Assembly (NCBI GenBank): GCA_965219685.1
Contig: CBDCOH010000002.1
Span: 3,392,001 to 3,456,000 of the forward strand
DNA length: 64,000 bases
DNA from: Candidatus Spongiisociaceae bacterium
Lineage (GTDB): Bacteria > Actinomycetota > Acidimicrobiia > Spongiisociales > Spongiisociaceae
Direction of reading: 5' to 3'
Program-made: the position numbers and the translations under genes
The notes under the pieces: model-generated
What the model was told of the DNA's origin: nothing
Databases searched by the model: none
What the model saw: the letters and a program-made list of their open reading frames with translations, nothing else
Part shown: positions 29,291 through 60,229 of the stretch, one piece after another
Numbering within the stretch: the first letter of the stretch is position 1
How the letters are laid out: every line of letters begins with the position of its first letter

Positions 29291-29513
29291 CTAGTTGGTA
29301 GTTTTAGTTGCTAATCGGTACTTACAGTTGGATCGTGCAGCGTTGTGCAACACATCTGTCGCATGTATGGATCTGTTTCTGGACTCGGACCCCTAGCTGC
29401 CATTTCGTGAAGAGCCCCCCTCGGCGCAAACGCGAGATCCAAACAGTGCCATAGAGGATGGCAAATAGAACGAACTAACGCTATCCTACGACTACCGACT
29501 AGGAACTACTCGG
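29291..29513. repeat. Heptamer-armed non-coding element, copy 1 (conserved core 29373-29466)
   Basis: Core 77/94 identical to 60073-60165; TAGTTxx left arm and ACTAxxx right arm. Confidence 0.85.
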
Positions 29514-31097
29514 CTAGGCCTGCATCTCTCCCGAGGATCGGGCGGAACCCGGCTGCCGCTCAGGGAGAACGTCGCGGAGGGGAAGCCCCCTGAACATAAG
29601 ACCGGCGACGGTGGCGGCGATCGCCACGGGTATCGCCAACCGGAACATCTGAGCCGAACTGAGCGCGACCGCCTCCCGGATGACGTCGCGCACGGACGCC
29701 TCCATCGTCGCGACGACCGCCGGGGTCGCGATCAACTCGCTGACCTCGAGGTCCGACACCGGCGAATCCTGCGGGAGTCGGGCTGCGAGGAGCCCGGCGA
29801 GACGCGCGTTGAACAGGGCTCCGAACACGGCCACCCCGGTACTACCGCCGAGTTGGCGGAACACCTGTACCGACGATGTCGCAACCCCGAGGTCCCGAGG
29901 ATGGACTGCGTTCTGTATGACCAGGATCAGCACCGGGATCAGGACACCCATGCTCAAGCCGAAGACGAGTAGGTAGCCGGCCGCGGCCGCCGGACTGGTC
30001 GAGACCGTCATGGTGCTCAGCAATGCCAATCCCACCCCGAGGAGGACGGGCCCTGAGGCCACTACCAACCGGTAGCGCCCCCATCGCGCCACGATCCGCC
30101 CCGACACAAGGCTCGCGACCAGGGAGGCCGTGAGCATCGGAACCAGGAGGAGTCCCGAGTGGGTCGCAGACAGGCCCAGGGCGATCTGCAAGAAGACCGG
30201 GAAGTACGCCAGCGGCAGGAAGAGGCCGAAGCCGGCGATGAAACTGGTCACGTTGGCAGCCGAGAACTCCCGGTTCCGGAAGAGGAACAGGGGCAGTATG
30301 GGAGAAGCAGCCTTTCCCTCCTGCCGCACGAACCACAGCAGCGCCAACACCCCCGCGGCCAGCGTCGAGACGATCACCGGGGAGCCCCACGCATACTCAT
30401 GACCTCCCCAGGTCGCGGCGAGCAGCACAGCGGCCAGCCCAAGCGCCAGTAGAGCAGCACCGAGCCAGTCCACACCGATTCCCCTGGTCACGGGTGGATC
30501 GGTCAGGTTGCGGCGGATCAGGACCAAAGTGATGACGGCCAGCGCGACGCTGGGGTAGAACGCCAGGCGCCAGGAGACATGATCGACCGCAACGCCTCCG
30601 AGCAACGGCCCGCAGACGCTGGCGACCGCGAACACCCCGCTTATGTACACCTGGTAACGGCCCCGCTGCCGCGGCGTGATCATGTCGCCGACGATCATGT
30701 AGCTGAGCGAGATCAGGCCGGCCGATCCCGCGCCTTGGACAGCCCTGAAGGCGATGAGTTGGCCGATGCTCTGGCTGAGGCCCGCCGCGCACGAACCCAG
30801 GGAGAACAAGAGGATGGCGACCTGCATCAGCCTCCGACGGCCGTAGAGATCGGACAGTTTGCCGTAGAGAGGGACCGTTACCGTTGACGCCAGCACGTTC
30901 GCGGTCAGCACCCAGGGAAGCAGCGTGAGGGCCCCCATCTCGCCGACGATGGTCGGAAGGGCCGTAGACACGATGGTGTAGTCCATCGCGGCGATGGCCA
31001 TAGCCAGCAGCAACGCAAAGAAGGTTCTTCGCACGGTCGGCGTCAGCTTCGATGCCTTGCTGCTTCCGCCGGCATGGGCTCCGGACTTCCGGGTCAT
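29514..31097 (-). CDS. MFS transporter, DHA2/EmrB-QacA type
   Basis: MDYTIVSTALPTI, GKLSDLYGRR, about 14 TM segments. Confidence 0.9.
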   Translation of the reverse strand: MTRKSGAHAGGSSKASKLTPTVRRTFFALLLAMAIAAMDYTIVSTALPTIVGEMGALTLLPWVLTANVLASTVTVPLYGKLSDLYGRRRLMQVAILLFSLGSCAAGLSQSIGQLIAFRAVQGAGSAGLISLSYMIVGDMITPRQRGRYQVYISGVFAVASVCGPLLGGVAVDHVSWRLAFYPSVALAVITLVLIRRNLTDPPVTRGIGVDWLGAALLALGLAAVLLAATWGGHEYAWGSPVIVSTLAAGVLALLWFVRQEGKAASPILPLFLFRNREFSAANVTSFIAGFGLFLPLAYFPVFLQIALGLSATHSGLLLVPMLTASLVASLVSGRIVARWGRYRLVVASGPVLLGVGLALLSTMTVSTSPAAAAGYLLVFGLSMGVLIPVLILVIQNAVHPRDLGVATSSVQVFRQLGGSTGVAVFGALFNARLAGLLAARLPQDSPVSDLEVSELIATPAVVATMEASVRDVIREAVALSSAQMFRLAIPVAIAATVAGLMFRGLPLRDVLPERQPGSARSSGEMQA

Positions 31098-31158
31098 CGA
31101 CACGTCGCCGGCCTGCCGGAGCAGAGCGATACGGACCGGCTCACCCGACAGGGTGGTC

Positions 31159-31983
31159 TCATCCGCGCACCGCGCGGAAGCGGGCCACACGATCGACGAT
31201 GGCTGCTTCGGTAGGAAGCCGCTCGATGCTGGACGCGCCGACGAACCCGTTTAGTCTCGGAACCAGTTGCAGCGCCTCCTCGAGGTCGGAGGGTTCGGAG
31301 ATGGGACCGCCGTGGCAAAGGACGGGAATGAACCTTCCGGCCTCGTCGGCAACCCCGCAGATCGCCTCGAGGACAGGCACCAGAGATGGCACGGTCCGCC
31401 GGTCGGAGGCACCGATCATGCCTCCTGTGGTCAGCCCAACGTGAGCAACCAGGACATCGGCGCCGGCCTCGGCCATGGCGGCCGCCTCTTCGGCGCTGAA
31501 CACGTAGGGCATGGTGAACATCCCCATACGGGAGGCCAGCCCGATCATCGCCACCTCGGCCGAGTAGGACATGCCGGTCGCCTCCAGCGCGCGCCGGAAG
31601 CCGCCGTCTATCAGGCCCACGGTCGGAAAGTTCTGGACCCCGGAGATCCCGCATCCCGCCAACTCGTCCAGGAACCTCCCCATGTCGCGGAACGGATCGG
31701 TCCCGCACACCCCGGCGATCACCGGCATCCTGTCGACCACGGTGACGATCTCCCTCGTCATCTCCAGGACGGTCCGGTTGGCGTCCCCGTAGGGCATAAG
31801 ACCGGCCAGCGATCCCCGTCCCGCCATCCGGTACCGGCCCGAGTTGTAGATGACGACGGCGTCCGCCCCGCCTGCCTCCGCGCACTTGGCGGAGAGGCCG
31901 GTCCCGGCCCCGGCGACCACGAGCGTCTCGTTCCGGCGTGCCTTCGCGATCAGGGCGCCTGCCAGATCATTGGTCTCAGGCAC
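31159..31983 (-). CDS. PEP-hydrolase-like TIM-barrel protein, copy 2
   Basis: GAGTGLSAKCAEAGGAD...YNSGRYRMAGRGSLAGLMPYGDAN, GVQNFPTVG. Confidence 0.9.
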   Translation of the reverse strand: MPETNDLAGALIAKARRNETLVVAGAGTGLSAKCAEAGGADAVVIYNSGRYRMAGRGSLAGLMPYGDANRTVLEMTREIVTVVDRMPVIAGVCGTDPFRDMGRFLDELAGCGISGVQNFPTVGLIDGGFRRALEATGMSYSAEVAMIGLASRMGMFTMPYVFSAEEAAAMAEAGADVLVAHVGLTTGGMIGASDRRTVPSLVPVLEAICGVADEAGRFIPVLCHGGPISEPSDLEEALQLVPRLNGFVGASSIERLPTEAAIVDRVARFRAVRG

Positions 31984-33202
31984 GGTCCCTCCTTTCCGAG
32001 ATCGCCAGAAGTCTGGCGGCTGCTGCCTGAGAGAAGGCCGGATCGTTGATGTGGGTGTCCAGCCGGACCACCTCGGTGTCCGAACCGGCGAGCGACTCCC
32101 GCAACCCTTCGGCCAGAGCCGCGTCGGCCGCCGGGTCATGGAAGGGGCCCCCGTCCACGGCGATCGCGGACGACCCGCGCAACGGGACCATGAGGACCGC
32201 CGGACCCATCGCCTCCGCCAGGCGCGCTCCGATCACGCGGCCGATCACGCGGCACTCCTCCGGGGAGGTCCGCATCAGCGTGACGAGGTCGTTGTGAACG
32301 TGGAACACCCGGTTGCCGAAGTGCTCCGGGACCGTGTCCCGTGGTCCGAAGCGCACCATGTCGGTACCCCCGGTGGACACGACCTGGGGAACCCCGAGCC
32401 GCCCTGCCGTCCTGAGGCGGTCGTCCCCCGCCGGCTTCGTCCCGCCCACCACCTCGTCGGCTATCTCCACGGTGGTCAGGTCCAGCATGGCGCTCACGCC
32501 CATCGGTCCGATCAGTCGCTCCATCGTCCGTCCACCCTCCCCTGTGGCATGGAAGGTCACGACCTCGTGGCCGGCCTCCTGTAGCCGGGCCCGGGCGCCG
32601 GTGACCCCCCTGGTGGTAAGGCCCAGCATGGTCGCGAAGGCGAGGCTCCGGTCGCCGGCGGGCACGGGCGCAGCCCGGACCGCCCCCGCGATGGCTGCTG
32701 CCGCGTTCGAGAGCACCCTGCGGGTGAGACGATTCAAGCCTGCTACGTCGGCAACGGACGACATGAGCAGAAGGTCCGAGCCACCGGCCAGGGCCCCGCC
32801 CGCGGAGGCCACCTGCGTGGACACGATCATCTTGGGCAATCCGAAGGGCAGTCGTGAGAAGGCTCGGACGGCCACGGAGGTGCCCCCGGAACCTCCGGCG
32901 GCCAGCACCCCCGAGCAACGTCCCGTTTCGACGAGTTCCGCAAGGATCTTCCCGGCCCCGTGGCCCATGACTCCCAGGGCCATGGCCCGGTCCCCGGCCG
33001 CTGCCAGGTCAGCGACCCTCCGGCCTGCCGCTTCCGCCACTGCTTGGCGGGTGATGTCGGGAGTTACTCCAGGGCAGCCCAGAACCCCCGCATCGATCAG
33101 TAGCGACGACACCCCCGCTTCCCGGATCCGGTCGCGGAGGTACGCGTACTCGTCACCCTTGGTGTCGAGCGTGCCCACGAGGGCGACGACGGGAGATGTC
33201 AC
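31976..33202 (-). CDS. Tm-1-like ATP-binding domain protein (UPF0261)
   Basis: GTLDTKGDE, GGSGGT, FHATGEGGR, HINDPAF. Confidence 0.9.
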   Translation of the reverse strand: MTSPVVALVGTLDTKGDEYAYLRDRIREAGVSSLLIDAGVLGCPGVTPDITRQAVAEAAGRRVADLAAAGDRAMALGVMGHGAGKILAELVETGRCSGVLAAGGSGGTSVAVRAFSRLPFGLPKMIVSTQVASAGGALAGGSDLLLMSSVADVAGLNRLTRRVLSNAAAAIAGAVRAAPVPAGDRSLAFATMLGLTTRGVTGARARLQEAGHEVVTFHATGEGGRTMERLIGPMGVSAMLDLTTVEIADEVVGGTKPAGDDRLRTAGRLGVPQVVSTGGTDMVRFGPRDTVPEHFGNRVFHVHNDLVTLMRTSPEECRVIGRVIGARLAEAMGPAVLMVPLRGSSAIAVDGGPFHDPAADAALAEGLRESLAGSDTEVVRLDTHINDPAFSQAAAARLLAISERRDRA

Positions 33203-33525
33203 TGCAGGGGCGAGAAGTCCGTGGGAACCCAGATCTCGTTGGTCATACCCGTGAGCAGCGGACCGTTCTCCTCACTCTTCTTGCGGGCGGCAACCCATTC
33301 CGGGTTCACCCGGAACCCCTCCCAGACCTCCTCGCGGCGGCCGAGATCCTCCCACTTGAGAAGGTAGTGAAGCACGTTCGGATCCCCGATCCTGGGCTCG
33401 AAGAAGGCCACCGGCTCGATACCGGCCTTCTTCCACATCGGGACGGTAGCTTCGGCGAAGCGGTCCTTGAGTTCTTCCATCCGTCCGTGAACCACCTGAT
33501 AGCGCCGGTATTCGTAGAACGCCAT
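33199..33525 (-). CDS. NIPSNAP-family protein
   Basis: YEYRRYQV...LHYLLKWEDL...PTDFSPLQ. Confidence 0.85.
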   Translation of the reverse strand: MAFYEYRRYQVVHGRMEELKDRFAEATVPMWKKAGIEPVAFFEPRIGDPNVLHYLLKWEDLGRREEVWEGFRVNPEWVAARKKSEENGPLLTGMTNEIWVPTDFSPLQ

Positions 33526-33882
33526 CTACTCTCCTTCCTCTATCGACACCAACTCGCCCGTGGCGGCCCGCCGCAGTCTCGCCACGCCGGAGACGGCTTC
33601 GGGGGCGATAGAACCGTAGATATGGGGAAACAGCTCGCCCACGGCATTCGGCTCCCACTTCACTTCGCTGCGCAGTAGGGAGGTGTCGATGGTCACCACT
33701 ATCACGCTGTCCATGGCGGCGTACCACTTGGCCAAGGTCCCCGGGACTTGCTCCGGCGACGAGCAGTGAAGGTATCCGTCTCTCAGATCGGCTTCGGATA
33801 CCGCAACGTACTGCTTGCCCGCGGCGATCGATGCGTCCCACTCCTCCGGGGTTATGATCTTGCACACTTGCGCCATAGCCAC
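33526..33882 (-). CDS. DUF952-family protein
   Basis: DLRDGYLHCS and ELFPHIYG motifs. Confidence 0.85.
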   Translation of the reverse strand: MAMAQVCKIITPEEWDASIAAGKQYVAVSEADLRDGYLHCSSPEQVPGTLAKWYAAMDSVIVVTIDTSLLRSEVKWEPNAVGELFPHIYGSIAPEAVSGVARLRRAATGELVSIEEGE

Positions 33883-34103
33883 CTCCTTGTCTCCTCGCGG
33901 TCCGCGAAACGGCCGCCCGTTACAGCGGTAGGTCGCCTGAGCACGGTTGGTCCGAGACTATGGGGGCAGTCCCGCTTTGGCTTGGTCAGCGTAGCGAGGG
34001 CCCGGGTCTCGCCTCGGTAAGCCGCCTGAACGGCCCTTCCGGACCCTCCCGACATCCCCGGCAGGGATGGGGCAAACGTCCGGACCCCGCTCGCGGCGTT
34101 GGT

Positions 34104-35519
34104 TCACTCTCCGTATCGGCGCCAGTGGTCGCCGAAGAGCGCCTCCTCGCTGGGTCGGTCCTCGGGGATCGTGGTCGACAGGTGGGTCAGGTTGATGAAG
34201 TGGCGGTAGTTGAGGTTCTCACTGATGCTGTTTCCCGCCCAGGTGCCGCAACCCATCGTCAGGGTGAAGGGGAGCCCGTTGGTGAAGCTGCCCCCGTTGC
34301 CGATGGCGTGGGCCTGGTTGACGAGCACCCTGACCACGTCCAACTCGTCGGCGAGGAGGCGGGCGTGGTCCATAGACGACGTGTAGATGCCACAGGAGTG
34401 GCCGCGTCCCCTGACCGCGAGGACGGCCCGTACCGTCTCGATCGCCTCTCTGATCCCGGCAGCCCGGTAGACGGTGAGCACCAGCGAGAGTTTCTCGTCC
34501 GCGAAGGATCCGGCTTCGGCGGGGAGCCGGTCCTCGACCAGGAACAACCGCGCCTCGCCGGCTTTCCCACCGAGTCCGGCCCGGCGGGCGAGGACACGGG
34601 CGTCCTTGGCGATCATCTCCCGGTTGAGCTTCCCGTCCACCCACAGGGCGTCCCGGACCGCTCGCTTCTCGCGTTCGTCGACCACGTAAGCCCCGGCCGC
34701 GCGGAGTTGCTCCAGTGCCGAGTCGTAGACATCGTCGAGGATGACCAGCGAGTTCTCCGATGAGCACGACGTGGCGTTGTCGAAGGTCTTGGAAGCCATG
34801 ACGCCCTCGGCCGCCTGCCGGAGGTCGGCGGTGCTGTCGACGATCACGGGCACGTTGCCTGCGCCCACCCCGATCGCGGGCTTGCCGCTCTGGTAGGCGG
34901 AGCGCACGTTGTTCTGCGATCCGGTGACGACGGACAGGTCGCAGGCCTCCATCAACCCGGTGGTGGCGCGCCTGGTGACCGGTGCAGGAAGGATTTGCAC
35001 GAGGTCCGCGGGCGCTCCGGCGGTTTCCAGGGCCGCCCGCATCAAATCGACCGCCCGGCTCGTGGTGGGGTAGGCCAGCGGGGAGGGCGCGACGATGACC
35101 GCGTTGCGGCCCTTAACGGCCATCATCGCCTTGTTGACGGGGGTAGCGGCGGGGTTCGTGGACGGCGTGACGGCGGCAACCACCCCCACCGGCTTGGCGT
35201 AGATCGCGAGCCCCCGGGACGGGTCCTCCTCCACCAGTCCCACGGTCCTGGCACGGCTGAGGTCGCGTAGCGTCCCGAACGTCTTGCGCCGGTTCTTGAC
35301 GATCTTGTCCTCGACGTTCCCGAGGCCGGTGGTCCTGACCGCGATCTCCGCCAGTTCTCGGGCATGGTCGGGCTTGTAGAGCGACCAGGCCAGGGCGGTC
35401 ACCACCTCGTCCACCCGTTCCTGGTCCGAATCGACGAACCCGGCCATGGCCGACCTCGCCCGAGCCACGAGGGTCACAACGGCTTCGGCGTCCGTGGCGT
35501 TCGCAACCAGGGTTGTCAT
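34104..35519 (-). CDS. CoA-acylating aldehyde dehydrogenase, SauS (sulfoacetaldehyde dehydrogenase)-like
   Basis: DKIVKNRRKTFGTLRDL, PSTNPAATP, SKTFDNATSCSSENS, MGCGTWAGNSISENLNYRHF. Confidence 0.8.
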   Translation of the reverse strand: MTTLVANATDAEAVVTLVARARSAMAGFVDSDQERVDEVVTALAWSLYKPDHARELAEIAVRTTGLGNVEDKIVKNRRKTFGTLRDLSRARTVGLVEEDPSRGLAIYAKPVGVVAAVTPSTNPAATPVNKAMMAVKGRNAVIVAPSPLAYPTTSRAVDLMRAALETAGAPADLVQILPAPVTRRATTGLMEACDLSVVTGSQNNVRSAYQSGKPAIGVGAGNVPVIVDSTADLRQAAEGVMASKTFDNATSCSSENSLVILDDVYDSALEQLRAAGAYVVDEREKRAVRDALWVDGKLNREMIAKDARVLARRAGLGGKAGEARLFLVEDRLPAEAGSFADEKLSLVLTVYRAAGIREAIETVRAVLAVRGRGHSCGIYTSSMDHARLLADELDVVRVLVNQAHAIGNGGSFTNGLPFTLTMGCGTWAGNSISENLNYRHFINLTHLSTTIPEDRPSEEALFGDHWRRYGE

Positions 35520-35529
35520 GCGCTGGTGC

Positions 35530-36330
35530 TCATCGGTCGGACCGCGTCCGCCAGTGGGCGACCGCGACGGTGGCATTGTCCCTGAGGCCCAGACCTCGTG
35601 CCGTGGCCAGCACGGTTCCGGCGATGGCTGCTGCGTCGCCGGACTCGGGACCGCATGCCGACCCGATGCCGGCAGGTGACGTGTCCCACAGCCATTCGAT
35701 GTCGCCGTAATCGGCGGCGAGCGGCTCCCAGGCGCCGTCACTGGCGATGATCACCGCCTCGGGTATCTCGGCGTCCTCGAAGTCACCGATCACGTCCACC
35801 TCTACCAGCCCTGCGCCGTACCCCTCGTCCTCGGGAGGCATTCCCAGGCATAGATCGATACCCCCAAACAGGCCCCTGTGGGGAGTCCCGCAGCAGTATC
35901 CCGCGAAACCGTCCGGCCCCGACTTCACCGAGAACGCCATCGTGTCACCCATCCACCCGATCAACAGACCGCCCTCGGGGGTCCAGGCCGATACGCACAG
36001 GGTGCTCATCGGAATCTCGGGCAGGGGAACCGGGCGGCTCCGAGATCCGGACAGCGCGAGCACCCGCTCGTTGGCCTCCGTGAACGCCGCCGCCATCTCG
36101 GCCTCGCCGTCGATCCGCCGCGGTAGGCCCTCGACGGCCGCCTCGGCCGCCTCGGCGCCGCGTGGATGACCCCCCAGCCCATCGGCCACTGCGATCACCC
36201 AGGCGCCGTCGTCCGACACGGCCGTGAACGCCCGATCCTGGTTCTCGCCACGCGGGCCGATGTCAGTCACCGAAGCGACCGTCACCGCCCTCCGCGACCG
36301 GTCTGGCTCGTTGGATCCTGCATCCGACAT
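35530..36330 (-). CDS. PP2C-family protein phosphatase
   Basis: GPRGENQD, AVADGLGGH, IASDG, DNAT motifs. Confidence 0.85.
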   Translation of the reverse strand: MSDAGSNEPDRSRRAVTVASVTDIGPRGENQDRAFTAVSDDGAWVIAVADGLGGHPRGAEAAEAAVEGLPRRIDGEAEMAAAFTEANERVLALSGSRSRPVPLPEIPMSTLCVSAWTPEGGLLIGWMGDTMAFSVKSGPDGFAGYCCGTPHRGLFGGIDLCLGMPPEDEGYGAGLVEVDVIGDFEDAEIPEAVIIASDGAWEPLAADYGDIEWLWDTSPAGIGSACGPESGDAAAIAGTVLATARGLGLRDNATVAVAHWRTRSDR

Positions 36331-36420
36331 AGGCGACATCATGCCAGATACCGGAGACCCAGGAGTTTGTCTCGGCGGACTACCCCGGGCAGACTGACCA
36401 CCATCCACCAATCACCAGCC

Positions 36421-38423: not shown

Positions 38424-38432
38424 CGGGCGCTG

Positions 38433-49570: not shown

Positions 49571-49821
49571 TTGTTCGTACCTCCCGAGTGATGTGGCAAG
49601 GGCATGTACGACGTTAGACCGACTGTGCACATCTCGTCGGGCGCCTCCGTGGTGACCGTTCGGGGGACGGCACTTCCCTTCCTTCTTCGCGATGCCTCGA
49701 AGGTTGCCGCCATTGCGCGGATCGGACAGCCTGAGGAGCGCAGGGCGCGTGCCTCGTCATCTAAGTGAACAGGGCCGGGCCTCCGCTTGTCGACCAGCCA
49801 CCAGCCACCGGCCCCGCTATA

Positions 49822-49950
49822 GTTCGTGCCCGGCCCGGGGAGACAACCGGGCGCCATGGGGAACAGCGAAGTCCGGTGGAAGCCCGGCGCTGTCCCGCAA
49901 CTGTCATGCCTCTCTCGCGCAGGGAGGACGAGCCAGGACGCCTGACCCCA
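49822..49950 (+). ncRNA. Cobalamin riboswitch upstream of btuFCD-btuR
   Basis: GAAGTCCGGTGGAAGCCCGGCGCTGTCCCGCAACTGT core and GAGCCAGGACGCCTG B12-box. Confidence 0.88.
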
Positions 49951-50052
49951 TGGTCACGAATCAGCTCTCGGAGGAAGGGTTGGTCGTGCAGGGGCTCATA
50001 GCGAGAACCCGGACGATCTCTCTTCATCCTCCGATCAAGGAGGATGTTTTCT

Positions 50053-52890: not shown

Positions 52891-53453
52891 CCAGCGCACC
52901 ACTCGCCGACGACCCCCGCCGTCCGGACACCCGCCGGGCCCGCTCCGTGTTGATCGTCAACACCGGGGACGGGAAGGGTAAGAGCACCGCCGCCATGGGC
53001 ATGGTGATGCGATCGGTGGCGCGTGGATGGAAGGTCGCTGTGGTCCAGTTCATCAAGTCGGGCGATTGGAAAGTGGGCGAGGAGAAGATGGGGCGACGGC
53101 TTGGCGTCGACTGGGACGCCGGGGGTGACGGGTTCTCCTGGGATAGCGAGGACCTCGACCGCTCGGCTGATCTGAACCGGGACGCCTGGCGACTGGCCAA
53201 GATGCGGATCGAGGAGGGAAAGCACCGCCTCGTGGTCCTCGACGAGATCACCTACCCCATCAACTGGGGCTGGATCGAAGAGGACGAGGTGGTCTCCACC
53301 CTCGCCGGCAGGCCGGCCAACGTCAACGTGGTCGTCACCGGCCGCGACGCCCCGGCCGGCCTGATCGAGATCGCCGACACCGTCACCGAGATGACCCTCG
53401 TCAAGCATGCCTATGACCAAGGCATCAGTGCTATCCGCGGTATCGATTTCTGA
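52887..53453 (+). CDS. cobO: Cob(I)yrinic acid a,c-diamide adenosyltransferase
   Basis: TGDGKGKSTAAMG, QFIKS, VLDEI, VTGRDAP. Confidence 0.93.
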   Translation: MTSAPLADDPRRPDTRRARSVLIVNTGDGKGKSTAAMGMVMRSVARGWKVAVVQFIKSGDWKVGEEKMGRRLGVDWDAGGDGFSWDSEDLDRSADLNRDAWRLAKMRIEEGKHRLVVLDEITYPINWGWIEEDEVVSTLAGRPANVNVVVTGRDAPAGLIEIADTVTEMTLVKHAYDQGISAIRGIDF

Positions 53454-53512
53454 CCGCTTTGCCGGGCCAAATGCAATCGAACGTCCCCGTTTCGATTGCC
53501 GTCAGTGCACTG

Positions 53513-53947
53513 TCATGCAGGACATGGCATCTCACGAAGGCCGTTTCTCGTTACGGCATACATCCACGGTGGCTTCTCGTCCAACAGTTTCTGTATGGCG
53601 TCCCATCGCGCCACGAACACGCGAAGTTGCTCCCATACAGCGAGATTACCGACTGTCGTGAGCACGAGAACGCGTAGCGGATGCGAGGCGAGGGCCTCCC
53701 GCTCAGCGGGTCGATGACGAATCTTCTTGTCCCGGGCCACGACGACCCACCCCTGCGCGGACGCCACCGGTATCCGCTCCACGTCCTCAGTACCGACCGG
53801 CACGGGCGAGCGATCATGACCCGGGTAGATACAGTCGCCACGTGCTACAGCCATCACCTGCCCGATGCCGAGCGCGCTCTCGTCGAAGAAGAATCGGATG
53901 GGACCCTCCCGTCTGACGCGCCAGGGGAGTTCGACCGGCCCCGTCAC
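53513..53947 (-). CDS. VapC45-like PIN toxin
   Basis: FFFDES, GWVVVARDKKIRHRPAE; coupled to a DUF433 gene as in Rv2018/Rv2019. Confidence 0.78.
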   Translation of the reverse strand: MTGPVELPWRVRREGPIRFFFDESALGIGQVMAVARGDCIYPGHDRSPVPVGTEDVERIPVASAQGWVVVARDKKIRHRPAEREALASHPLRVLVLTTVGNLAVWEQLRVFVARWDAIQKLLDEKPPWMYAVTRNGLREMPCPA

Positions 53948-54636
53948 GCCGCCCGGAGATACCGTGTCTCGAACTCGACTGCCGTGTTGATGTCCAGTCC
54001 GGTGACTCCGTAATCGCGATAGATGTCTCTGATCGCGGAGGGCGGCTCGCCAGCAAGGTACAGCTCAGTTATGACCTCGGTGCGAACCCTCCTAACAGTC
54101 GGGACTCCGAACGAGAAACGGGGGTTCACGTAGACGGGCACCTGTACTTCCATGACGACGTAGCGCACGGCTTCTTCCGTTGCCTCGTCAAACTCGACGC
54201 GCCTGCAGAAGGTCGCTGCAGGTTCGCTGAGCACGAGCTGACCGGAACCGACAACCATCCATAAGTCCTCAGGGATCTCCAGCCGGTGCTGCATCTCCGC
54301 AACGAGTTCGCGGCCCGCTATGAGAGGTCTTGAGACAGCAAACGGGAAAGCCGTGTCGAACTCGCGGCTAAGCACCTCCCGCAAGGGGCGAAGGCGTTGC
54401 AGAGGTAGGTGCTCGCGGTATTCTCGAAGGTAGGCCGCTTCGACGAACTCGCCCCACGACACCCGAGAGTCGCCGGTGGGGCTGCTGCGAAGGACGGGCG
54501 GATACTGCTTCGAGCCCCGAGTGGCGCCCTCAAGCCACCACCGGAGTTTCGAGGGTGAGATGCGGAGCAGCCGCGCTGCTTCGGAGAGACTGTAGGTGGG
54601 TCGGGCCAGCAGGGAGATCATCCTTCGCTCCTCCAT
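53944..54636 (-). CDS. VapB45-like antitoxin (HTH + DUF433)
   Basis: YSLSEAARLL, SWGEFVEA, VNPRFSFGVPTV...AVEFE. Confidence 0.82.
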   Translation of the reverse strand: MEERRMISLLARPTYSLSEAARLLRISPSKLRWWLEGATRGSKQYPPVLRSSPTGDSRVSWGEFVEAAYLREYREHLPLQRLRPLREVLSREFDTAFPFAVSRPLIAGRELVAEMQHRLEIPEDLWMVVGSGQLVLSEPAATFCRRVEFDEATEEAVRYVVMEVQVPVYVNPRFSFGVPTVRRVRTEVITELYLAGEPPSAIRDIYRDYGVTGLDINTAVEFETRYLRAA

Positions 54637-54745
54637 GACAACCGAGAGCGTAGCCCTCCCGGTCAGCTGATGGAAGAACCCTTCAGCCGAGACAGCATTT
54701 CACGCTCGCGCCACATTGGTTGTGAACTTCTCTAAACTGCCGCCC

Positions 54746-54874
54746 ATGAAGTTCCGTTTCGTGCTCGTTCTAGTGGCCTTCGTCGTGGTCGCCATCTTCG
54801 CCACTCGCCGACCTCGGATCGTAAAACCGCCCCCGGAACGCGGGACCTGGACACCGGTTCCATCCGATCGGTGA
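54746..54874 (+). CDS. Small 42-aa single-TM protein (not in the ORF track)
   Basis: MKFRFVLVLVAFVVVAIFATRRPRIVKPPPERGTWTPVPSDR*; its stop overlaps the next GTG start (GTGA). Confidence 0.55.
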   Translation: MKFRFVLVLVAFVVVAIFATRRPRIVKPPPERGTWTPVPSDR

Positions 54875-55623
54875 CCATCCACATTGCTCTCCACGTACCC
54901 GGTCCGCCGGGGATCCGCGTGCGAAAGGCGCTGCTTGCCGAACCGGACGTCGAAACCCGCATCCTCCATGAAGAGCCTGGTCAGCAAGGAACCGCCGGCG
55001 GGGCCTCGGGCGTGTCCGGCTGCGATGTGCTCGCGGTGCACAGGATTTCCAGCAGGACGCGTCCGCTTATGGACGAAGCCGTCTCCAAGGGCATCCCTGT
55101 GGTGGTCGCCGAGGACCTTACGGCTCGATACCCGATAGGCGGCGGCACATTCGTGACGCGGGCGCGCCGGGAGGCCGGTCTGGCCGCCGCCGTAGCGCTG
55201 TCGATAGTCGATCGGGCCGCCCCGCCCGTCGAAACCCGCCTTGCTTGGACGGTCCCGGGTCGTCCGCTGGGGGCCGGCCTACCGGTCACTTTCCCGGAGC
55301 CTATGGGTCCCCAATGGGCGGGTCGGGACGAGAGCCCTCTGCCCTGGCCGTCGGTGACCTGCCTCGCAGCACCGGTCCATTCCCAGTGGATGGGTATCGC
55401 GATCCGCATGAGAACCAACGAGGACGGTAGAGAACGGGTCCGTACGCTCGGCATCACTGACGAGGCGGCATTTCTCAAAGGACTCTGCATGGTATCCGCC
55501 ACTCTCGCTGCCGCCCGCGGTGCGTACCCACCGGGAGTGAGTACTCCGGGCGATCCCGGCGGAGTATTCATGAAGCTGGCCCGGGCCGCAGGTCTGGAGA
55601 TAGCCGAATTCACACCCGATTGA
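54871..55623 (+). CDS. Hypothetical protein, possibly a degenerate Rossmann-like/saccharopine dehydrogenase-like fold
   Basis: Long ORF with plausible composition; no firm motif. Confidence 0.55.
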   Translation: MTIHIALHVPGPPGIRVRKALLAEPDVETRILHEEPGQQGTAGGASGVSGCDVLAVHRISSRTRPLMDEAVSKGIPVVVAEDLTARYPIGGGTFVTRARREAGLAAAVALSIVDRAAPPVETRLAWTVPGRPLGAGLPVTFPEPMGPQWAGRDESPLPWPSVTCLAAPVHSQWMGIAIRMRTNEDGRERVRTLGITDEAAFLKGLCMVSATLAAARGAYPPGVSTPGDPGGVFMKLARAAGLEIAEFTPD

Positions 55624-55810
55624 GTGGTGGCTGGTGGCTGGTGGGCCGACCGGACAGTCGACCACGAACCTGGAGCCCCCAGCGGTCGTCGGTGACCGGC
55701 GCTTTCGTCGTTTGTTCTTGAACGGTATTAGGCCGGATTTACTGGACAGTAACGTTTGTACCACGTCGTACCATTATTGACAGTTGGTTTATTCACCACT
55801 CACCACTCAC
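55621..55810. repeat. Convergent intergenic region bounded by opposed 7-bp repeats
   Basis: Left TGAGTGG TGGCTGG TGGCTGG TGG; right TTCACCA CTCACCA CTCAC. Confidence 0.75.
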
Positions 55811-56676
55811 TACAACCGCGGGTTGATCCGTTCCTCCAGCGAGAATGCGATGAGGGCGAACCCGAGAGATGCAAGCATGATCAGCAGGCCCGGGGGCAGA
55901 ACCCACCACTTCCAGGCCGGCGTCAGGAAGGCGCCGCGCGCTTGGGCCCAGAACAAGGTCGAGCCCCAGCTCTTCTGGATGGGATCACCGAGACCGAGGA
56001 AGCTCAGCGCGGCCTCCAGCAGTATCGCGCTCGAGACCGCCCGGACGAAAGATCCAGTCGCCAGCAGCGCCGTACGGGGAACGATGTGCCGGAGGATCGT
56101 CCAGCGGTCCGGCGCCCCCATCGAACGAGCCGCCAGCACGTACTCCCTCGACCTGAGGGACAGGACCTGCGAACGGATGATCCGGGCGGGCTCGGCCCAG
56201 ATGAGCACCGCGATGACCAGGATCGTGTTCAGAAGGCTCCTGCCCAGGTAGGCGGCCAGCACTATGAGCAGCGGCAGGAACGGCAGGATGAGGATCACGT
56301 CGACCCCCCGCATCAGGGCCGCCCCCAACCGTCTGGGGTAGTAACCGGCCAGAACCCCGACCGTCGTCCCGATCAGCAGGGCGACCGCCGCCGCGACTAT
56401 CCCCACCGACAGGGACACCCGTGTTCCGAACATGATCTCCGAGAGGAGGTCCTGGCCGACATCGTTGGTACCCAGCAGGTGCTCGCCGCTGGGGGGCAGG
56501 AAGGGTGTGGCAACCCGCTCGGAAGGGTCGTACGGCGCCAACCACGGCGCCAGGATCGCCGTGAATAGCAACGCACCCACGATCACCGCGCCAGCCACAC
56601 CGAGGATCCTGGGGAGCCGGGAACGTCGCCGCATGGTGCGCTTGGCCGCTCTACCCTCGATGCCGGTAGCGGTCAC
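55810..56676 (-). CDS. Peptide/nickel-type ABC permease (DppC-like)
   Basis: HLLGTNDVGQD, EYVLAARSMGA, ALSFLGLG. Confidence 0.9.
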   Translation of the reverse strand: MTATGIEGRAAKRTMRRRSRLPRILGVAGAVIVGALLFTAILAPWLAPYDPSERVATPFLPPSGEHLLGTNDVGQDLLSEIMFGTRVSLSVGIVAAAVALLIGTTVGVLAGYYPRRLGAALMRGVDVILILPFLPLLIVLAAYLGRSLLNTILVIAVLIWAEPARIIRSQVLSLRSREYVLAARSMGAPDRWTILRHIVPRTALLATGSFVRAVSSAILLEAALSFLGLGDPIQKSWGSTLFWAQARGAFLTPAWKWWVLPPGLLIMLASLGFALIAFSLEERINPRL

Positions 56677-57647
56677 GACGCCCTGGTCCTAGGGTCTATC
56701 AGCGGGTACAGGAGGTCGGCCGCCAGGTTCGCGATCAGCACCGCCCCCGTAAAGACCAGAAAGGCCGCCTGCATCACGGGATAGTCACGGCCCGAGACCG
56801 CTTCAAAGACCAGTCGACCGAGCCCCGGATACGAGAACACCGTTTCGATGATCACCGTGCCCCCGAAGGCAAACCCGAGCCGGATGGCGAGAACCGTGAC
56901 CACCGGAGCGATTGTGTTGCGGGCGACATGCCCGAACAGCACCCTGCGCTCGCCGACGCCCTTCGCTCTCGCGGTACGGATGTAGTCCTCTCCCAGCGTT
57001 TCGAGCATCGCGTAGCGCATCGTCATGTAGACACCCGGCGTGGCGAGGATCGACAGGGTGACCACCGGAAGTGCGGCGTGGCTGACAATGTCCAAGGCGT
57101 ACGCCCAGCCCTCCAAGTCGGCCGCGGGGGTGACGGCACCGTACGACGGCAACAGCCGCCATTGGACCGCGAAGATCGAGATCAGCATCATACCCAACCA
57201 GAAGGAGGGCAGAGACTCGATCGATATCATCCCCGACAACAGGCTCAAGTCGCCCTTCGTACCTCGCCGCCAAGCGGAGAGCGCCCCCAGCACCACCCCG
57301 ACGATCGATGACACCACCAGCGAAAGGCCCGTGATCAGCAACGTCCAGGGAAGCCGGTCGAGGATCATGTCGACGATCGGCCGCTTCGACCGGAACGAGT
57401 AGCCGAAGTCGCCGGTGAGGATGTCGCCCCAGTACCGGAGGTACTGCTTCCAGAGGGGAGCGTCCAGCCCCACCCGGGCCACGATCTCCGCCCTGTCCTC
57501 GGGGCTGAGGAGACCGACGTCCACCCCGGCGATCAGGGCGAGCGGATTCCCCGGCATCAACCTGGGCAGCAGGAAGTTGAGCGTCACCGCCACCACCACG
57601 ACCGTCCCGTACTGGGCCAGCCGACGGAGATCGATGCGCCGTCTCAA
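56673..57647 (-). CDS. Peptide/nickel-type ABC permease (DppB-like)
   Basis: GDFGYSF, EDYIRTARAKG, ETVFSYPGLG, RDYPV. Confidence 0.9.
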   Translation of the reverse strand: MRRRIDLRRLAQYGTVVVVAVTLNFLLPRLMPGNPLALIAGVDVGLLSPEDRAEIVARVGLDAPLWKQYLRYWGDILTGDFGYSFRSKRPIVDMILDRLPWTLLITGLSLVVSSIVGVVLGALSAWRRGTKGDLSLLSGMISIESLPSFWLGMMLISIFAVQWRLLPSYGAVTPAADLEGWAYALDIVSHAALPVVTLSILATPGVYMTMRYAMLETLGEDYIRTARAKGVGERRVLFGHVARNTIAPVVTVLAIRLGFAFGGTVIIETVFSYPGLGRLVFEAVSGRDYPVMQAAFLVFTGAVLIANLAADLLYPLIDPRTRAS

Positions 57648-57788
57648 GCCGGCGGCTCAGCCTTGCCTGCGGCCTCCCGTGATCCCCGGAGGGGGCCGGG
57701 CAATCCCCCGGCGGCCCGTCCCTCGGCCATGGAATACCTCGTCAGCGTGCGGGCGGGCCACCGAATATCACCGTCATTCGGCCCTTCC

Positions 57789-59801
57789 CTAAGGACGCGC
57801 CGACGGAGCAAGCAGGGACAGCTTGCTGACGATGCCCTGTCCGGCGATGAACTCCCAATCCGAATAGACGCTCGAGTCGTACACGTAGGCCCCATCGGGA
57901 TACAGCAGCAGCACGAAGGGCAACTCCTCGGCGATTATCTCCTGCATCCGAAGCAGGATGGCGATGCGCTCCGCCGGGTCGGGCTCGACGGGCAGCGCCT
58001 CGGAGAGCGCATCCATCTCGTCGTTGCCGAAGCCGGTCAGGTTGAGGAACCCGCTGGCCGTGGAGCTGTGGACCAACCAAGGCAGTCGCAGCGGGTCGGC
58101 CTGCACGGGCGCCGACCATCCCCACATCGCGATGTCGTAGTTGCGGCCGTTGTTCACGTCGAAGCCCGGCCAAACCGCCTGCTCCCAGGTCGCGGTCTCG
58201 ACCGACGCAACCGAGGTCTCTATCCCGATCGCGGCCAGCATCTCCACGGTCAACTCGGCGATCCGGAGCCGCAGCGAGTCAGGCGCGTTGGTGATGATCT
58301 CGAACGACATGGGCTGTCCGTCAAACTCGCGCACCCCGTCGCCGTCGCTGTCGGCGTACCCTGCTTCGTCGAGAAGGGCGTTGGCCGCGGCCGGGTCGTA
58401 CACGGGGATGATCGACGGGTTGTAGGACCGGTGCTCGGGATGTATCCAGCCCGGACTCCCCACGGTCGCCGCACCCAGGTATACGGTGTCGACGATGTCC
58501 TGGCGGTTCATGGCCAGGTTGATGGCCTGGCGGACCGCAACGTCGTCGAAGGGACGCTTCGAGGCGTCGTAGTTGATCATCTGGGTGGTGAACTCGGGTC
58601 CTAGGACGATGTCCAGCGGGTCCTGGGCGTCCAGCAGATCGATCTGCTCCGGAGGTATGCGCTCGAAGATCACGTCGACCTCGCCTGTGCGGATGGCGGC
58701 CTGCGCTCCTGCGTCGTCGGCGAAGACGATGACCACCAGCTCCCCGACCGCCGGCGCGCCCCGGAAATAGTCGGGATTGGCCTCGAATCGGTAACTCTGG
58801 CCCTCGACGTACTCGACCAGCTTGTACGGACCGGTCCCGATGTTGGTGGCGCCGAAGTCGTGCTCCGACGGAAGCGGGACCGACTCCCAGACGTGGCGCG
58901 GGATGATGGGCGCGTCAGCCAGCGCCACCAAGTCGAATCCGGCGTTGGGCCTGCTGAGGACGAAGGTCAGGTTGTGGTCGTCGCTCACCACCACGTCCGC
59001 TACGCCGCTGAAGTCGCGGGCGAACCGGCTCGCCTCGGGGTTGTTCACGTAGTAGTCGACGCTGAAAGCCACATCAGCGGCGGTCAGGGGCTGCCCGTCG
59101 TGGAACGTCACCCCTTCGACCAAGGTCACGGAGTATTCGGTCAGGTCGTCGTTCACGGCGACGCTGGACGCCAGCCACGGCTGCGGGATGCCGTCGGCGT
59201 CGAGCTGCATGAGCGAGTCGTACTGGATCATCAGCAGGTTCCATCCGGGGAAGCCGCTGATGTAGGTGTACGGGTTGAGGGTTCCCTCGTCGCCGGTGAC
59301 CGCCGCCCGTACCGTGACCGGTCCCGCGGCCGCCTCCTGCTCCATCATCGCCTCGTCGAGCATCTGCTCGGCCTCTTCGAGAGCGGACTCCGCGGCGGCC
59401 AGCGCCTGCTCGGAGGCTTCAGCCGCCTCCGCGGCCCTCTGCTCGGCCTCCTCGAGGGCAGCCTGCGCATCTGCCAGCGCCGACTGGGATGTCTCGTCCC
59501 CCTCCATGGCTGCGGCGGCCGCTGCCGCGGCTGCTTCCAGATCGGCTTGCGCCTGGGCCAGCGCATCCGCCGCCGCTTCGGCCTCCGCCTGGGCCGACGC
59601 CGCCTCGGACTGGGCGGCGGCAGCTTCAGACTGGGCGGCCGCAGCCTGTGCCTGCGCGGCGGTCACTTCCTCCGCCGACGCGTCCTCGCCGCCGTCACCG
59701 CACGCAGTGGCAACCAACGAAAGAGCAGCCAGCAGCACGAAGAGCTTCCGCCTCCGGCGCGATCGTCCGCGCGAGTGAACTACGGGGTCTCCCGATGACA
59801 T
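57789..59801 (-). CDS. Family-5 ABC substrate-binding lipoprotein (DppA-like) with a long Ala/Glu/Gln coiled-coil linker
   Basis: Lipobox VATACG, FHDGQPLTAADVAFS, GTGPYKL, VRQAINLA. Confidence 0.9.
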   Translation of the reverse strand: MSSGDPVVHSRGRSRRRRKLFVLLAALSLVATACGDGGEDASAEEVTAAQAQAAAAQSEAAAAQSEAASAQAEAEAAADALAQAQADLEAAAAAAAAAMEGDETSQSALADAQAALEEAEQRAAEAAEASEQALAAAESALEEAEQMLDEAMMEQEAAAGPVTVRAAVTGDEGTLNPYTYISGFPGWNLLMIQYDSLMQLDADGIPQPWLASSVAVNDDLTEYSVTLVEGVTFHDGQPLTAADVAFSVDYYVNNPEASRFARDFSGVADVVVSDDHNLTFVLSRPNAGFDLVALADAPIIPRHVWESVPLPSEHDFGATNIGTGPYKLVEYVEGQSYRFEANPDYFRGAPAVGELVVIVFADDAGAQAAIRTGEVDVIFERIPPEQIDLLDAQDPLDIVLGPEFTTQMINYDASKRPFDDVAVRQAINLAMNRQDIVDTVYLGAATVGSPGWIHPEHRSYNPSIIPVYDPAAANALLDEAGYADSDGDGVREFDGQPMSFEIITNAPDSLRLRIAELTVEMLAAIGIETSVASVETATWEQAVWPGFDVNNGRNYDIAMWGWSAPVQADPLRLPWLVHSSTASGFLNLTGFGNDEMDALSEALPVEPDPAERIAILLRMQEIIAEELPFVLLLYPDGAYVYDSSVYSDWEFIAGQGIVSKLSLLAPSARP

Positions 59802-59906
59802 GGATCCGCCTCCCTATCCGAGGAAAAGCATCATACCCTATGGGCTCGGAAGCATTAGGGGCCGAAAGCCGTCGACGGCCCCGTAGCGGTCGGCAGGAGA
59901 TGCGAC

Positions 59907-60229
59907 CTAGACGGCTAGTCGCTAGTCTGTAGTTGGTGAGCGGTGGTTAGCGTTAGCGCGCGACAGTCCGAGCACGGTAGCAGTAGTGCCGGTCCGTTCC
60001 GTGGTCGCGCGGAGGAGGATTCACGGAGTAGAAGCGCGGGGATCCGAACTCACCTACAGATGTGTTGTACGCCTGTTCCTGGACTCGGACCTCTGGCTGG
60101 CACTTCGTGAAGAGCCCACTGGGCGCAACCGCGAGACCTAAACGGTGCTCCCGAGGATGGCCAATGATGCGATCTATCGTTAACCGCTGCCTACCAACTA
60201 GTAACTACAGACTACCGACTAGGAACTAA
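59907..60229. repeat. Heptamer-armed non-coding element, copy 2 (conserved core 60073-60165)
   Basis: Imperfect ~45-bp inverted arms (59915-59957 vs 60174-60222); core shared with 29373-29466. Confidence 0.88.

What the first reader, a model, noticed from the sequence alone, without database searches (positions are those of the whole stretch)
29291..60229. Dispersed non-coding element: conserved ~93-nt structured core inside heptamer-repeat inverted arms (two copies plus a solo arm)
Seen: 29373-29466 and 60073-60165 align at 77/94 by hand, with invariant blocks CTGGACTCGGACC, TTCGTGAAGAGCCC, GGCGCAA, CGCGAGA and GAGGATGGC. The core can close a long stem (copy 1: CTGTTT/AAACAG, GGA/TCC, CTCG/CGAG; copy 2: CTGTT/AACGG, GG/CC, CTCG/CGAG) around small hairpins (CAC-TTC-GTG vs CAT-TTC-GTG; GCCC-ACT-GGGC in copy 2). 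Several differences are wobble-compatible or fall in loops. Both copies end in an identical 19-mer GACTACCGACTAGGAACTA and are bracketed by inverted arms of TAGTxxx/ACTAxxx heptamers. The contexts are unrelated (between convergent transporter genes; inside a dpp operon), and no transposase or reverse transcriptase is encoded in the window. Inference: a mobile, non-autonomous structured RNA/DNA element. The minus-strand text GCACCGTTTAGGTCTC...GGGCTCTTCACGAAGTG...CAGGAACAGG reminds me of ncRNA found beside retron-type reverse transcriptase genes, but this is unverified recollection. If true, these would be orphan retron-like ncRNAs served in trans.
Basis: partly seen in the sequence, partly recalled or inferred. 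Interest (0 to 1): 0.85.

Follow-up and report, generated by a model that had tools for sequence, protein, structure and literature searches.

The report
Orphan IS982-type MITE family, not RNA
The two look-alike stretches are copies of a small non-coding jumping element (a MITE) that occurs more than fifty times in this genome, uses the end sequences of IS982-family insertion sequences and inserts at CTAG; there is no sign that its centre is a structured or retron-like RNA.

Summary

The two copies belong to a large family. Iterated nhmmer gives 145 hits in the 4.42-Mb genome, 52 of them full length. The canonical element is about 253 bp. Its 12-nt inverted ends begin AC/AT and it is flanked by duplicated CTAG. 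A congener (G007) has a single CTAG at two orthologous sites, so these are precise empty sites.

The same 16-21 terminal nucleotides, again flanked by CTAG, bound ~1-kb IS982-family insertion sequences in congeners, in the family and in many other Actinobacteria. The own genome has no such transposase.

Nothing supports a structured RNA:
- Rfam gives no hit.
- RNAalifold gives -0.45 kcal/mol.
- Fold z-scores run from -0.37 to +1.33.
- The core is the least conserved part of the element.

The only reverse transcriptase is a frameshifted group II intron gene far from any copy.

Verdict: a new member of a known kind, an orphan IS982-type MITE. Interest is low.

The parts
29291..29517 (+). Window copy 1 of the MITE, 227 bp including the flanking CTAGs at 29291-29294 and 29514-29517. 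It is rearranged. The right end is canonical (GGAACTACTCGG then CTAG). The canonical left terminal repeat is missing, and the left arm is the inner part of an inverted right arm.
   Evidence: top nhmmer hit, C2:3421282-3421523; shortest element, 227 bp
29291..29333 (-). Left heptamer arm of copy 1 (TAGTNNN units). It matches the reverse complement of the family's right-arm array, not the canonical left arm.
29373..29466 (+). It corresponds to consensus positions ~93-187 of the 260-nt family consensus.
29467..29517 (+). Right arm of copy 1: heptamer array (ACTANNN), terminal inverted repeat and CTAG. The TAG stop of the minus-strand MFS gene (ORF 29514..31190) lies in this CTAG.
59907..60070 (-). 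Left half of the copy-2 composite: a left-truncated element of a divergent subfamily on the minus strand. Its right-arm terminus (CTAG at 59907-59910) faces outward.
   Evidence: (C2:3451905-3452070, minus, HMM 67-241)
60066..60237 (+). Right half of the copy-2 composite: a left-truncated plus-strand element. It holds the core at 60073-60165, the heptamer arm at 60186-60228 and the terminal repeat GGAACTAATCAT at 60222-60233. The flanking 4-mer is CCGG (60234-60237) instead of CTAG.
   Evidence: (C2:3452066-3452207, plus, HMM 88-230)
21471..21548 (+). 5'-truncated 'solo' right arm ending in GGAACTAGT then CTAG. It lies between an amidohydrolase gene and a TPP-enzyme gene, and the amidohydrolase ORF (20060..21481) ends inside it.
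   Evidence: (C2:3413471-3413548)

Best explanation
The finding is a family of miniature inverted-repeat transposable elements (MITEs).

Anatomy. A canonical copy is about 253 bp of non-coding DNA. Its imperfect 12-nt terminal inverted repeats are ACGAGTAGTTCC at the left and GGAACTAATCAT at the right. It is flanked by a duplicated CTAG target.

Mobilisation. The ends are those of ~1-kb IS982-family insertion sequences. The elements were therefore most likely moved in trans by an IS982-family DDE transposase that binds the terminal repeats and inserts at CTAG with a 4-bp duplication. That transposase is not in the present assembly, so the copies are now stranded and decaying.

Shown: the repeat family, the ends, the target duplication, empty sites in a congener, and identity of the ends with IS982-family ISs in congeners.

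Inferred: that this transposase did the moving, and that the subterminal TAGTNNN heptamer array in the right arm serves as extra transposase binding sites.

The ~95-nt 'core' is internal filler with no detectable constraint of its own. Both window copies are rearranged derivatives. Copy 1 has lost its left terminal repeat. Copy 2 is two left-truncated elements joined head to head. That is why both look bracketed by inverted heptamer arms.
For: Family size:
- Iterated nhmmer gives 57, then 103, then 145 hits in the own genome. 52 of them span HMM positions <=45 to >=225.
- Element lengths are 227-282 bp and mean pairwise identity is 0.66.

Ends:
- The consensus runs CTAGACGAGTAGTTCC...GGAACTAATCATCTAG.
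- 40 inverted end pairs lie 96-282 bp apart at <=3 mismatches. 21 have CTAG on both sides, 2 have CCAG on both sides and 17 differ. 70 of the 80 ends start AC or AT just inside the 4-mer.

Mobility and target duplication:
- G007 has a single CTAG exactly where the own genome has CTAG-element-CTAG at C2:4341228-4341488 and at C2:295733-295994.
- G007 has CTAC at the site of C2:1718335-1718596.
- The whole copy-2 composite is absent from G007. Its flanks there are 27 bp apart against 329 bp in the own genome, with CTAA at the left junction.

Parent kind:
80 rows were shown, and 9 of them hold inverted pairs 962-1000 bp apart.
- One of these, L063:1120-2097, encodes a 297-aa protein that matches NF033520 (IS982 family transposase) at 170.5 bits against a cut-off of 130, E = 4.5e-50.
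- In the window's own family, 5 of 29 genomes have NF033520 matches at E<=1e-10 and 3 are over the cut-off.
- Those ISs, in two congeners (G001, G002) and two other genera (G010, G021), are 1032-1065 bp. They are bounded by CTAGATGAGTAGTTCCAAGG...CCATCTAG and share 21 terminal nt at 90-95% with the MITE.
- The passages read from PMC7335449 give IS982 ISs as about 1 kb, with conserved 5'-AC-3' ends and direct repeats of variable length.
- An IS982-derived MITE of ~240 bp is described in Cardinium (PMC9769881, passages read).

Distribution is typical of MITEs: 74 of 76 hits of >=120 nt lie outside my crude gene calls, with 42 in tandem, 17 in divergent and 15 in convergent intergenic regions.
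Against: - No IS982-family transposase is in the own assembly. The best NF033520 match is 31.5 bits against a cut-off of 130. None is in G007 either, the other main carrier. Trans-mobilisation is therefore inferred from end identity alone.
- The ~220-bp interior has no similarity to the five ISs compared, so derivation from an IS by internal deletion is not shown.
- Copies are old and diverse (pairwise identity 0.40-0.97), with distinct subfamilies.
- 58 solo right arms exist, and many start at nearly the same consensus position. Plain random decay does not predict this.
- The assembly is 96.7% complete by marker count, so a transposase on an unassembled replicon cannot be excluded.
Confidence: 0.9

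Rival explanations
1. The core is a structured non-coding RNA, retron-like msr/msd or other. It is carried on or flanked by repeat arms and served in trans by a reverse transcriptase.
For:
- A 3-bp GCG/CGC hairpin around CAAA is kept in most copies, with 2 of its 3 pairs showing some double changes.
- One RVT_1 match exists in the genome.
Against: - Rfam 15 gives nothing at the gathering threshold over the whole window and nothing at E<=10 on 29250-29560. Copy 2 was not rerun in the lax mode.
- RNAalifold energy is -0.40 and 0.0 kcal/mol for the two strands of 52 whole elements, and -0.45 for 53 cores.
Double-sided changes number 15 cells against 22.0 shuffled.
- The top mutual-information pairs are a clique of subfamily-marker columns, not antiparallel runs.
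- Fold z-scores run from -0.37 to +1.33.
- The core is the least conserved segment: 0.61 against 0.63-0.75 for the other segments over all copies, and 0.70 against 0.72-0.79 in the main subfamily.
- The only RT is a group II intron type split over two frames. It scores 83.7 and 143.6 bits against TIGR04416, whose cut-off is 300, and reads YADH where I recall YADD. No family hit lies within about 40 kb of it.
Confidence: 0.03
2. It is a MITE family moved by a transposase other than IS982, for example one of the IS4/IS5-like DDE transposases that the genome does carry. The similarity of its ends to IS982 ISs would then be coincidental or convergent.
For: - The genome has several DDE transposase genes that hit NF033520 only weakly (8 matches, 20-31 bits).
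- One of them sits in an 838-bp IS that is also flanked by CTAG.
Against: - That IS ends in GGGCGTGTTCAC, and the 1061-bp IS has other ends again. Neither resembles the MITE ends.
- The MITE ends match IS982-family ISs over 16-21 nt, including the CTAG flank and the AC start, in the same genus.
- No end pair between 300 bp and 5 kb in the own genome encloses an IS982-type transposase. The three loci inspected showed no transposase-like ORF by eye, and the six-frame HMM search found none over the cut-off.
Confidence: 0.05
3. It is a host-domesticated repeat. The element, or its heptamer-array right arm, has acquired a cellular role such as a protein binding site, a transcription boundary or mRNA-end formation. 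That role would explain the many solo right arms.
For: - 58 solo arm hits lie away from larger hits. 26 of them keep the terminal repeat, and many begin near consensus position 165-175.
- ACTA-every-7 arrays are far above chance.
- Three genes in the window end inside element sequence.
Against: - There is no significant orientation bias relative to flanking genes (27:15, p = 0.09), and no preference for convergent over divergent spacers (15 against 17).
- Sites are empty in a congener with the neighbouring genes intact.
- Arms are no more conserved than expected for the terminal repeats of a transposon.
- No expression data were available.
Confidence: 0.05

Closest known systems
IS982-derived MITE of the Cardinium endosymbiont of Oedothorax gibbosus (PMC9769881; abstract and passages read)
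   Same: Both are short (~240-260 bp) elements without a transposase gene. Both are bounded by inverted repeats very similar to those of an IS982-family IS, are present in many copies, and are lineage-specific expansions.
   Different: - The host phylum differs (Bacteroidota endosymbiont against a free-living high-GC actinobacterium), and the sequences are unrelated.
- The Cardinium MITE is described as derived from its parental ISCca4 and maintained by intact copies in the same genome.
- Here no parent is in the genome, and the interior is unrelated to the ISs compared.
IS982-family insertion sequences of Actinobacteria (ISCef2/ISCef3 kind, PMC7335449; here L063, L201, L202, L204, L207)
   Same: - They share the same 16-21 terminal nucleotides.
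- The inverted repeat starts with AC.
- CTAG lies on both flanks.
   Different: - The ISs are 978-1065 bp and encode a ~300-aa DDE transposase (NF033520). The element here is ~253 bp and has no room for one.
- The heptamer array of the right arm is not seen in the five IS ends printed. Those show at most a second TAGT 14 nt inside the first.
   Same: All are intergenic, multi-copy, TIR-bounded, non-autonomous elements with a fixed short target duplication.
   Different: They have different end sequences and presumed transposase families. Several of them have documented effects on transcription or mRNA processing, which were not testable here.
Retron msr/msd ncRNA
   Same: Only that it is a non-coding stretch of ~100 nt with some self-complementarity.
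   Different: - There is no adjacent RT and no Rfam match.
- There is no conserved fold.
- It occurs in 50+ dispersed copies with transposon ends and target duplications.

Membership tests
MITE (non-autonomous TIR transposon) | Short, with no room for a transposase gene | tested here: met
   52 full copies measure 227-282 bp. The six-frame NF033520 search finds nothing over the cut-off anywhere in the genome.
MITE (non-autonomous TIR transposon) | Terminal inverted repeats | tested here: met
   The consensus ends match at 14/16 including CTAG. 40 inverted end pairs of 96-282 bp are found at <=3 mismatches.
MITE (non-autonomous TIR transposon) | Target-site duplication of fixed length | tested here: met
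   G007 has a single CTAG at two sites that are CTAG-element-CTAG in the own genome. 23 of 40 pairs have identical 4-mers on both sides, including 2 with CCAG/CCAG.
MITE (non-autonomous TIR transposon) | Multi-copy, dispersed, with presence/absence differences between relatives | tested here: met
   145 nhmmer hits lie across the chromosome. Empty sites are seen in G007.
MITE (non-autonomous TIR transposon) | Ends shared with an autonomous IS that could supply the transposase | tested here: met
   IS982-family ISs in G001, G002, G010, G021 and in L063 carry the same ends. Actual mobilisation was not tested.
IS982 family (as source of the ends) | [quoted passage not shown] | tested here: met
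   36 of 80 ends start AC and 34 start AT just inside the CTAG.
IS982 family (as source of the ends) | Encodes an IS982-type DDE transposase (NF033520) | tested here: not met
   The element is non-coding, and the own genome has no match over the 130-bit cut-off (best 31.5 bits). It is therefore an IS982-associated MITE, not an IS982 member.
Retron ncRNA (msr/msd) | Lies next to a retron-type reverse transcriptase gene | tested here: not met
   The genome has one RVT_1 match, at C2:102982-103497. It is a group II intron type and is frameshifted. No family hit lies within about 40 kb of it.
Retron ncRNA (msr/msd) | Match to a curated retron RNA model | tested here: not met
   No Rfam 15 family matches 29250-29560 at E<=10 on either strand. 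That Rfam holds retron msr models is recalled, not checked.
Structured ncRNA in general | Conserved secondary structure supported by covariation | tested here: not met
   See (about zero consensus energy; no covariation above shuffles; z-scores -0.37 to +1.33).
Structured ncRNA in general | Expressed as a discrete RNA | not testable with these tools
   No RNA holder was listed among the 24 runs.

The most novel reading that the evidence does not exclude
The right arm is a functional module in its own right. It is a tandem array of four to five TAGTNNN heptamers that reiterate the inner half of the terminal repeat. It may act as a multi-site transposase landing pad, allowing one-ended or arm-only transposition. 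This would explain three things: the 58 solo right arms with a recurrent inner boundary, the 96-147-bp arm-only mini-elements, and copies such as the two in the window that carry right-arm sequence at both ends. Such behaviour would be new for the poorly studied IS982 family.
Probability: 0.1. Interest if true: 0.45.

Novelty: new member of a known kind. Interest (0 to 1): 0.2.

Why it matters
- For annotation, it removes a candidate 'new structured RNA / orphan retron' and replaces it with a defined repeat family. The family has a consensus, ends, a CTAG target and 145 hits. It should be masked before RNA-motif or regulatory-motif searches in this genome and its congeners.
- It gives the IS982 family, whose transposition is little studied (PMC7335449), a clean natural data set. 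This comprises precise empty sites, a fixed 4-bp CTAG duplication, and non-autonomous derivatives that have outlived their transposase.
- Insertions touch gene ends. In the window, three ORFs terminate inside element sequence. The family is therefore a source of small C-terminal and operon-spacer differences between close relatives.

Tried and rejected
- Rfam: the gathering run on the whole window gave only a tRNA and a cobalamin riboswitch elsewhere. The E<=10 run on copy 1 gave nothing.
- Consensus folding: whole elements on both strands and cores gave essentially no structure.
- Mutual information with APC correction gave subfamily signal only.
- Parent IS in the own genome: the three end pairs 1.3-4.3 kb apart (L031-L033) showed no transposase-like ORF by eye; no Pfam scan was run on them.
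- Public genome scans:
  - A 21-mer from the left arm gave 0 hits.
All 80 rows shown were single matches spread across unrelated phyla, about what chance gives in ~600 Gb.
  - The stored loci L050-L165 and L226-L305 (196 records) were then scanned with the family HMM. Only 3 held a near-full element: L064 and L085, which are the same unnamed MAG, and L143, whose title I did not see. All three came from the end-sequence scan, and none of the core-16-mer loci scored.
- Expression: no RNA holder listed.
- Laid contigs: contigs of four DNA runs laid on 28800-30000 gave no clean excision joint. One joint skipping 29258-29511 in X7 has 'between: not known'.
- Empty sites for copy 1: G007 and G001 have 146 and 102 bp of unrelated spacer instead, so no precise junction could be read.
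- Literature: 'miniature inverted-repeat transposable' + Acidimicrobiia gave 0 papers. IS982 + target site duplication + inverted repeats + Streptomyces gave 0 papers. I therefore found no description of this family in the held library. ISfinder could not be consulted, and the supplements of PMC7335449 were not seen; they may list related actinobacterial ISs.
- One NCBIfam scan of two resident ISs failed because my coordinates were not an ORF. It was not repeated.

Full report
OBSERVATION

A global alignment of 29373-29466 with 60073-60165 gives 77 identities in 94 columns. The long blocks and the 19-mer occur only at the two stated places in the window. ACTA repeated every seven bases occurs nine times in the window, all at the three element sites, against none in 100 shuffles.

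The flanking genes are as stated:
- Copy 1 lies between a plus-strand ABC-2 permease and a minus-strand MFS transporter.
- Copy 2 lies between a double ABC ATPase with oligopeptide-type C-terminal domains and a family-5 solute-binding protein, both on the minus strand.

THE FAMILY

The window is C2:3392001-3456000 of a 4.42-Mb, 65% G+C genome in two contigs.
- BLAST of copy 1 against this genome finds 54 hits at E<=1e-3.
- Three rounds of nhmmer find 57, 103 and 145 hits.
- 52 hits span nearly the whole model. They were aligned with 80-nt flanks.
- Homology starts and stops sharply. The consensus is 260 nt, CTAGACGAGTAGTTCC...GGAACTAATCATCTAG.
- Elements are 227-282 bp. Mean pairwise identity is 0.66, with a range of 0.40-0.97, and there are recognisable subfamilies.
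- A search for the two end motifs with up to three mismatches finds 189 ends and 40 inverted pairs 96-282 bp apart.

MOBILITY AND TARGET

Of the 40 pairs, 21 have CTAG outside both ends, 2 have CCAG on both sides and 17 differ. Just inside the 4-mer, 70 of 80 ends begin AC or AT. No longer direct repeat lies beyond the 4-mer.

I compared three canonical copies, with their flanks, against five congeners. In G007 the flanks of C2:4341228-4341488 abut with a 4-bp overlap. Read directly, G007 has one CTAG where the own genome has CTAG-element-CTAG. The same holds for C2:295733-295994. The site of C2:1718335-1718596 reads CTAC in G007.

For window copy 2, the G007 flanks lie 27 bp apart against 329 bp in the own genome, and the left junction reads CTAA. 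For window copy 1, G007 and G001 have 146 and 102 bp of unrelated spacer, so the element is absent but no junction can be read.

The element is therefore a transposon that duplicates a 4-bp CTAG target. CTAG is rare in this genome: 3577 occurrences against about 14,000 expected from base composition.

WHOSE ENDS

Among the 80 rows shown, nine hold two inverted copies 962-1000 bp apart. These come from Micromonospora, Streptomyces, Kitasatospora, Spirillospora, Solwaraspora, Actinacidiphila and an uncultured actinobacterium.

The 978-bp unit in L063 encodes one 297-aa protein. It matches NCBIfam NF033520, IS982 family transposase, at 170.5 bits (cut-off 130), and Pfam DDE_Tnp_1_3.

Within the window's own taxonomic family, 5 of 29 genomes have NF033520 matches at E<=1e-10 and three are over the cut-off. 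These ISs are found in two congeners and two other genera. They are 1032-1065 bp, bounded by CTAGATGAGTAGTTCCAAGG... and ...CCATCTAG, and share 21 terminal nucleotides with the MITE at 90-95%.

The IS982 review describes the family as about 1 kb, with conserved 5'-AC-3' ends and direct repeats of variable length (PMC7335449, abstract and table passages). This fits AC immediately inside the CTAG.

The own genome has no such transposase: 8 weak matches, the best at 31.5 bits. G007 has none either. The interior of the MITE shows no similarity to five of these ISs.

Outside the own genome, near-full-length matches were seen in:
- G007 (75% and 71% identity) and weakly in G002 (68%), among the 40 other genomes searched;
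- 3 of 196 stored external loci.

Only the termini are shared more widely: 13 of 41 genomes in three genera, counting the own genome.

IS THE CORE A STRUCTURED RNA?

Every test was negative.
- Rfam 15 has no match at the gathering threshold in the window and none at E<=10 on 29250-29560.
- RNAalifold on 52 elements gives -0.40 and 0.0 kcal/mol for the two strands. On 53 cores it gives -0.45 kcal/mol and a single 3-bp hairpin.
They show fewer double-sided changes than shuffles (15 against 22.0). They beat the slid controls only in percent paired, which is expected for a structure derived from one of the sequences.
- APC-corrected mutual information is dominated by a clique of subfamily-marker columns.
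- Four cores folded on both strands have z-scores from -0.37 to +1.33, and their MFE structures differ from copy to copy.
- The core is the least conserved segment of the element.
- Using crude GC3-based gene calls (3811 ORFs, 85% of the contig), 74 of 76 hits of >=120 nt are intergenic. They are spread over tandem (42), divergent (17) and convergent (15) spacers. Orientation relative to tandem neighbours is 27 same and 15 opposite, p = 0.09.

RETRON LEAD

The genome has one RVT_1 match, at C2:102982-103497. It is split over two overlapping frames. It matches the group II intron RT/maturase model TIGR04416 at 83.7 and 143.6 bits, well under the 300-bit cut-off. It reads YADH where I recall YADD in active enzymes. 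The nearest family hits are tens of kilobases away. Nothing links the element to reverse transcription.

WHY THE WINDOW COPIES LOOK SPECIAL

The canonical left arm has no heptamer array.

Copy 1 (29291-29517) lacks the left terminal repeat. Its left arm matches the inner part of an inverted right arm, followed by the inner part of a normal left arm.

Copy 2 is two elements, each missing its left ~60-85 nt, joined head to head near 60066-60070. Both therefore end in right arms on both sides.

A third site, 21471-21548, is a solo right arm.

MECHANISM, WITH STATUS

Shown:
- a non-coding TIR element;
- a 4-bp CTAG duplication;
- insertion differences between congeners;
- ends identical to IS982-family ISs of the same genus.

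Inferred:
- an IS982-family DDE transposase supplied in trans moved the copies;
- that transposase has since been lost from this lineage, or lies on unassembled DNA, which leaves old, diverging copies;
- the TAGTNNN array, which repeats the inner half of the terminal repeat, gives extra binding sites.

COMPARISON AND NOVELTY

An IS982-derived MITE of about 240 bp is already described in Cardinium (PMC9769881, passages read). The kind is therefore known.

This family differs in host, in sequence, in lacking a resident parent, in an interior unrelated to the IS, and in its heptamer arm. Two searches of the held library found no description of it. ISfinder and paper supplements could not be consulted.

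I rate it a new member of a known kind, with low interest. The point left open is the set of 58 solo right arms with a recurrent inner boundary and the arm-only mini-elements, which might reflect an unusual mode of IS982 transposition.

Noticed in passing
own genome, 58 sites, e.g. window 21471-21548; C2:3953446, C2:966911, C2:910253: 58 'solo' right-arm hits lie away from any larger hit. 26 keep the terminal repeat but have no left end within 300 bp. 8 are arm-only mini-elements of 96-208 bp with both ends. Many solo arms begin at nearly the same consensus position (~165-175, around ...ATGGAGGATGG), which random truncation would not give.
   Followed up: partly
window 29514-29516, 60230-60232, 21479-21481: Three ORFs end inside element sequence. 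The MFS gene's stop lies in the right CTAG of copy 1. The ABC ATPase ORF's stop lies in the last 4 nt of the terminal repeat of copy 2; in G007 the homologous flank runs on by about 21 nt before the site. The amidohydrolase ORF ends in the solo arm.
   Followed up: partly
window 29357-29498, seen in run X6: A contig about 97% identical to the flanks (11 differences in 372 nt) keeps the left arm and the last ~25 nt of copy 1. It has 52 other letters in place of the 142-nt core and inner right arm. Two more distant contigs (86-88% identical) carry a divergent element at the same site. This could be strain variation or an assembly effect in a repeat.
   Followed up: no
G000:C2:102400-103660 (L200:917-2175): This is the genome's only RVT_1 match. 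It is a group II intron-type reverse transcriptase split over two overlapping frames and reads YADH in the catalytic motif, so it is probably a decayed intron ORF.
   Followed up: partly
G000:C2:737199-738036 (L169:1401-2238) and at least two other sites (L170, L172): An 838-bp IS at about 88% identity between copies, with ends GGGCGTGTTCAC flanked by CTAG. It matches NF033520 only weakly, so it is a different DDE family. The left flank of the L169 copy reads like a heptamer arm (…ACTAGAGACTACTA), so it may have inserted into a MITE arm. A second IS of 1061 bp has two 98% identical copies.
   Followed up: partly
own genome: CTAG is about four-fold under-represented: 3577 occurrences against ~14,100 expected from base composition. 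Each MITE right arm carries two or three CTAGs, so the family holds a visible share of all CTAG sites.
   Followed up: no
window 49817-49965 (+) and 3010-3084 (-): A cobalamin riboswitch (40.7 bits, gathering 31.5) and a tRNA (70.4 bits) are the only Rfam matches in the window.
   Followed up: no
L046:363-567 (G010), L048:3073-3347 (G022): Other genera of the same family carry short elements (205 and 275 bp) with the same end motif. The own-genome MITE query matched these genomes only at its termini, so the same ends appear to have captured different interiors in different lineages.
   Followed up: partly
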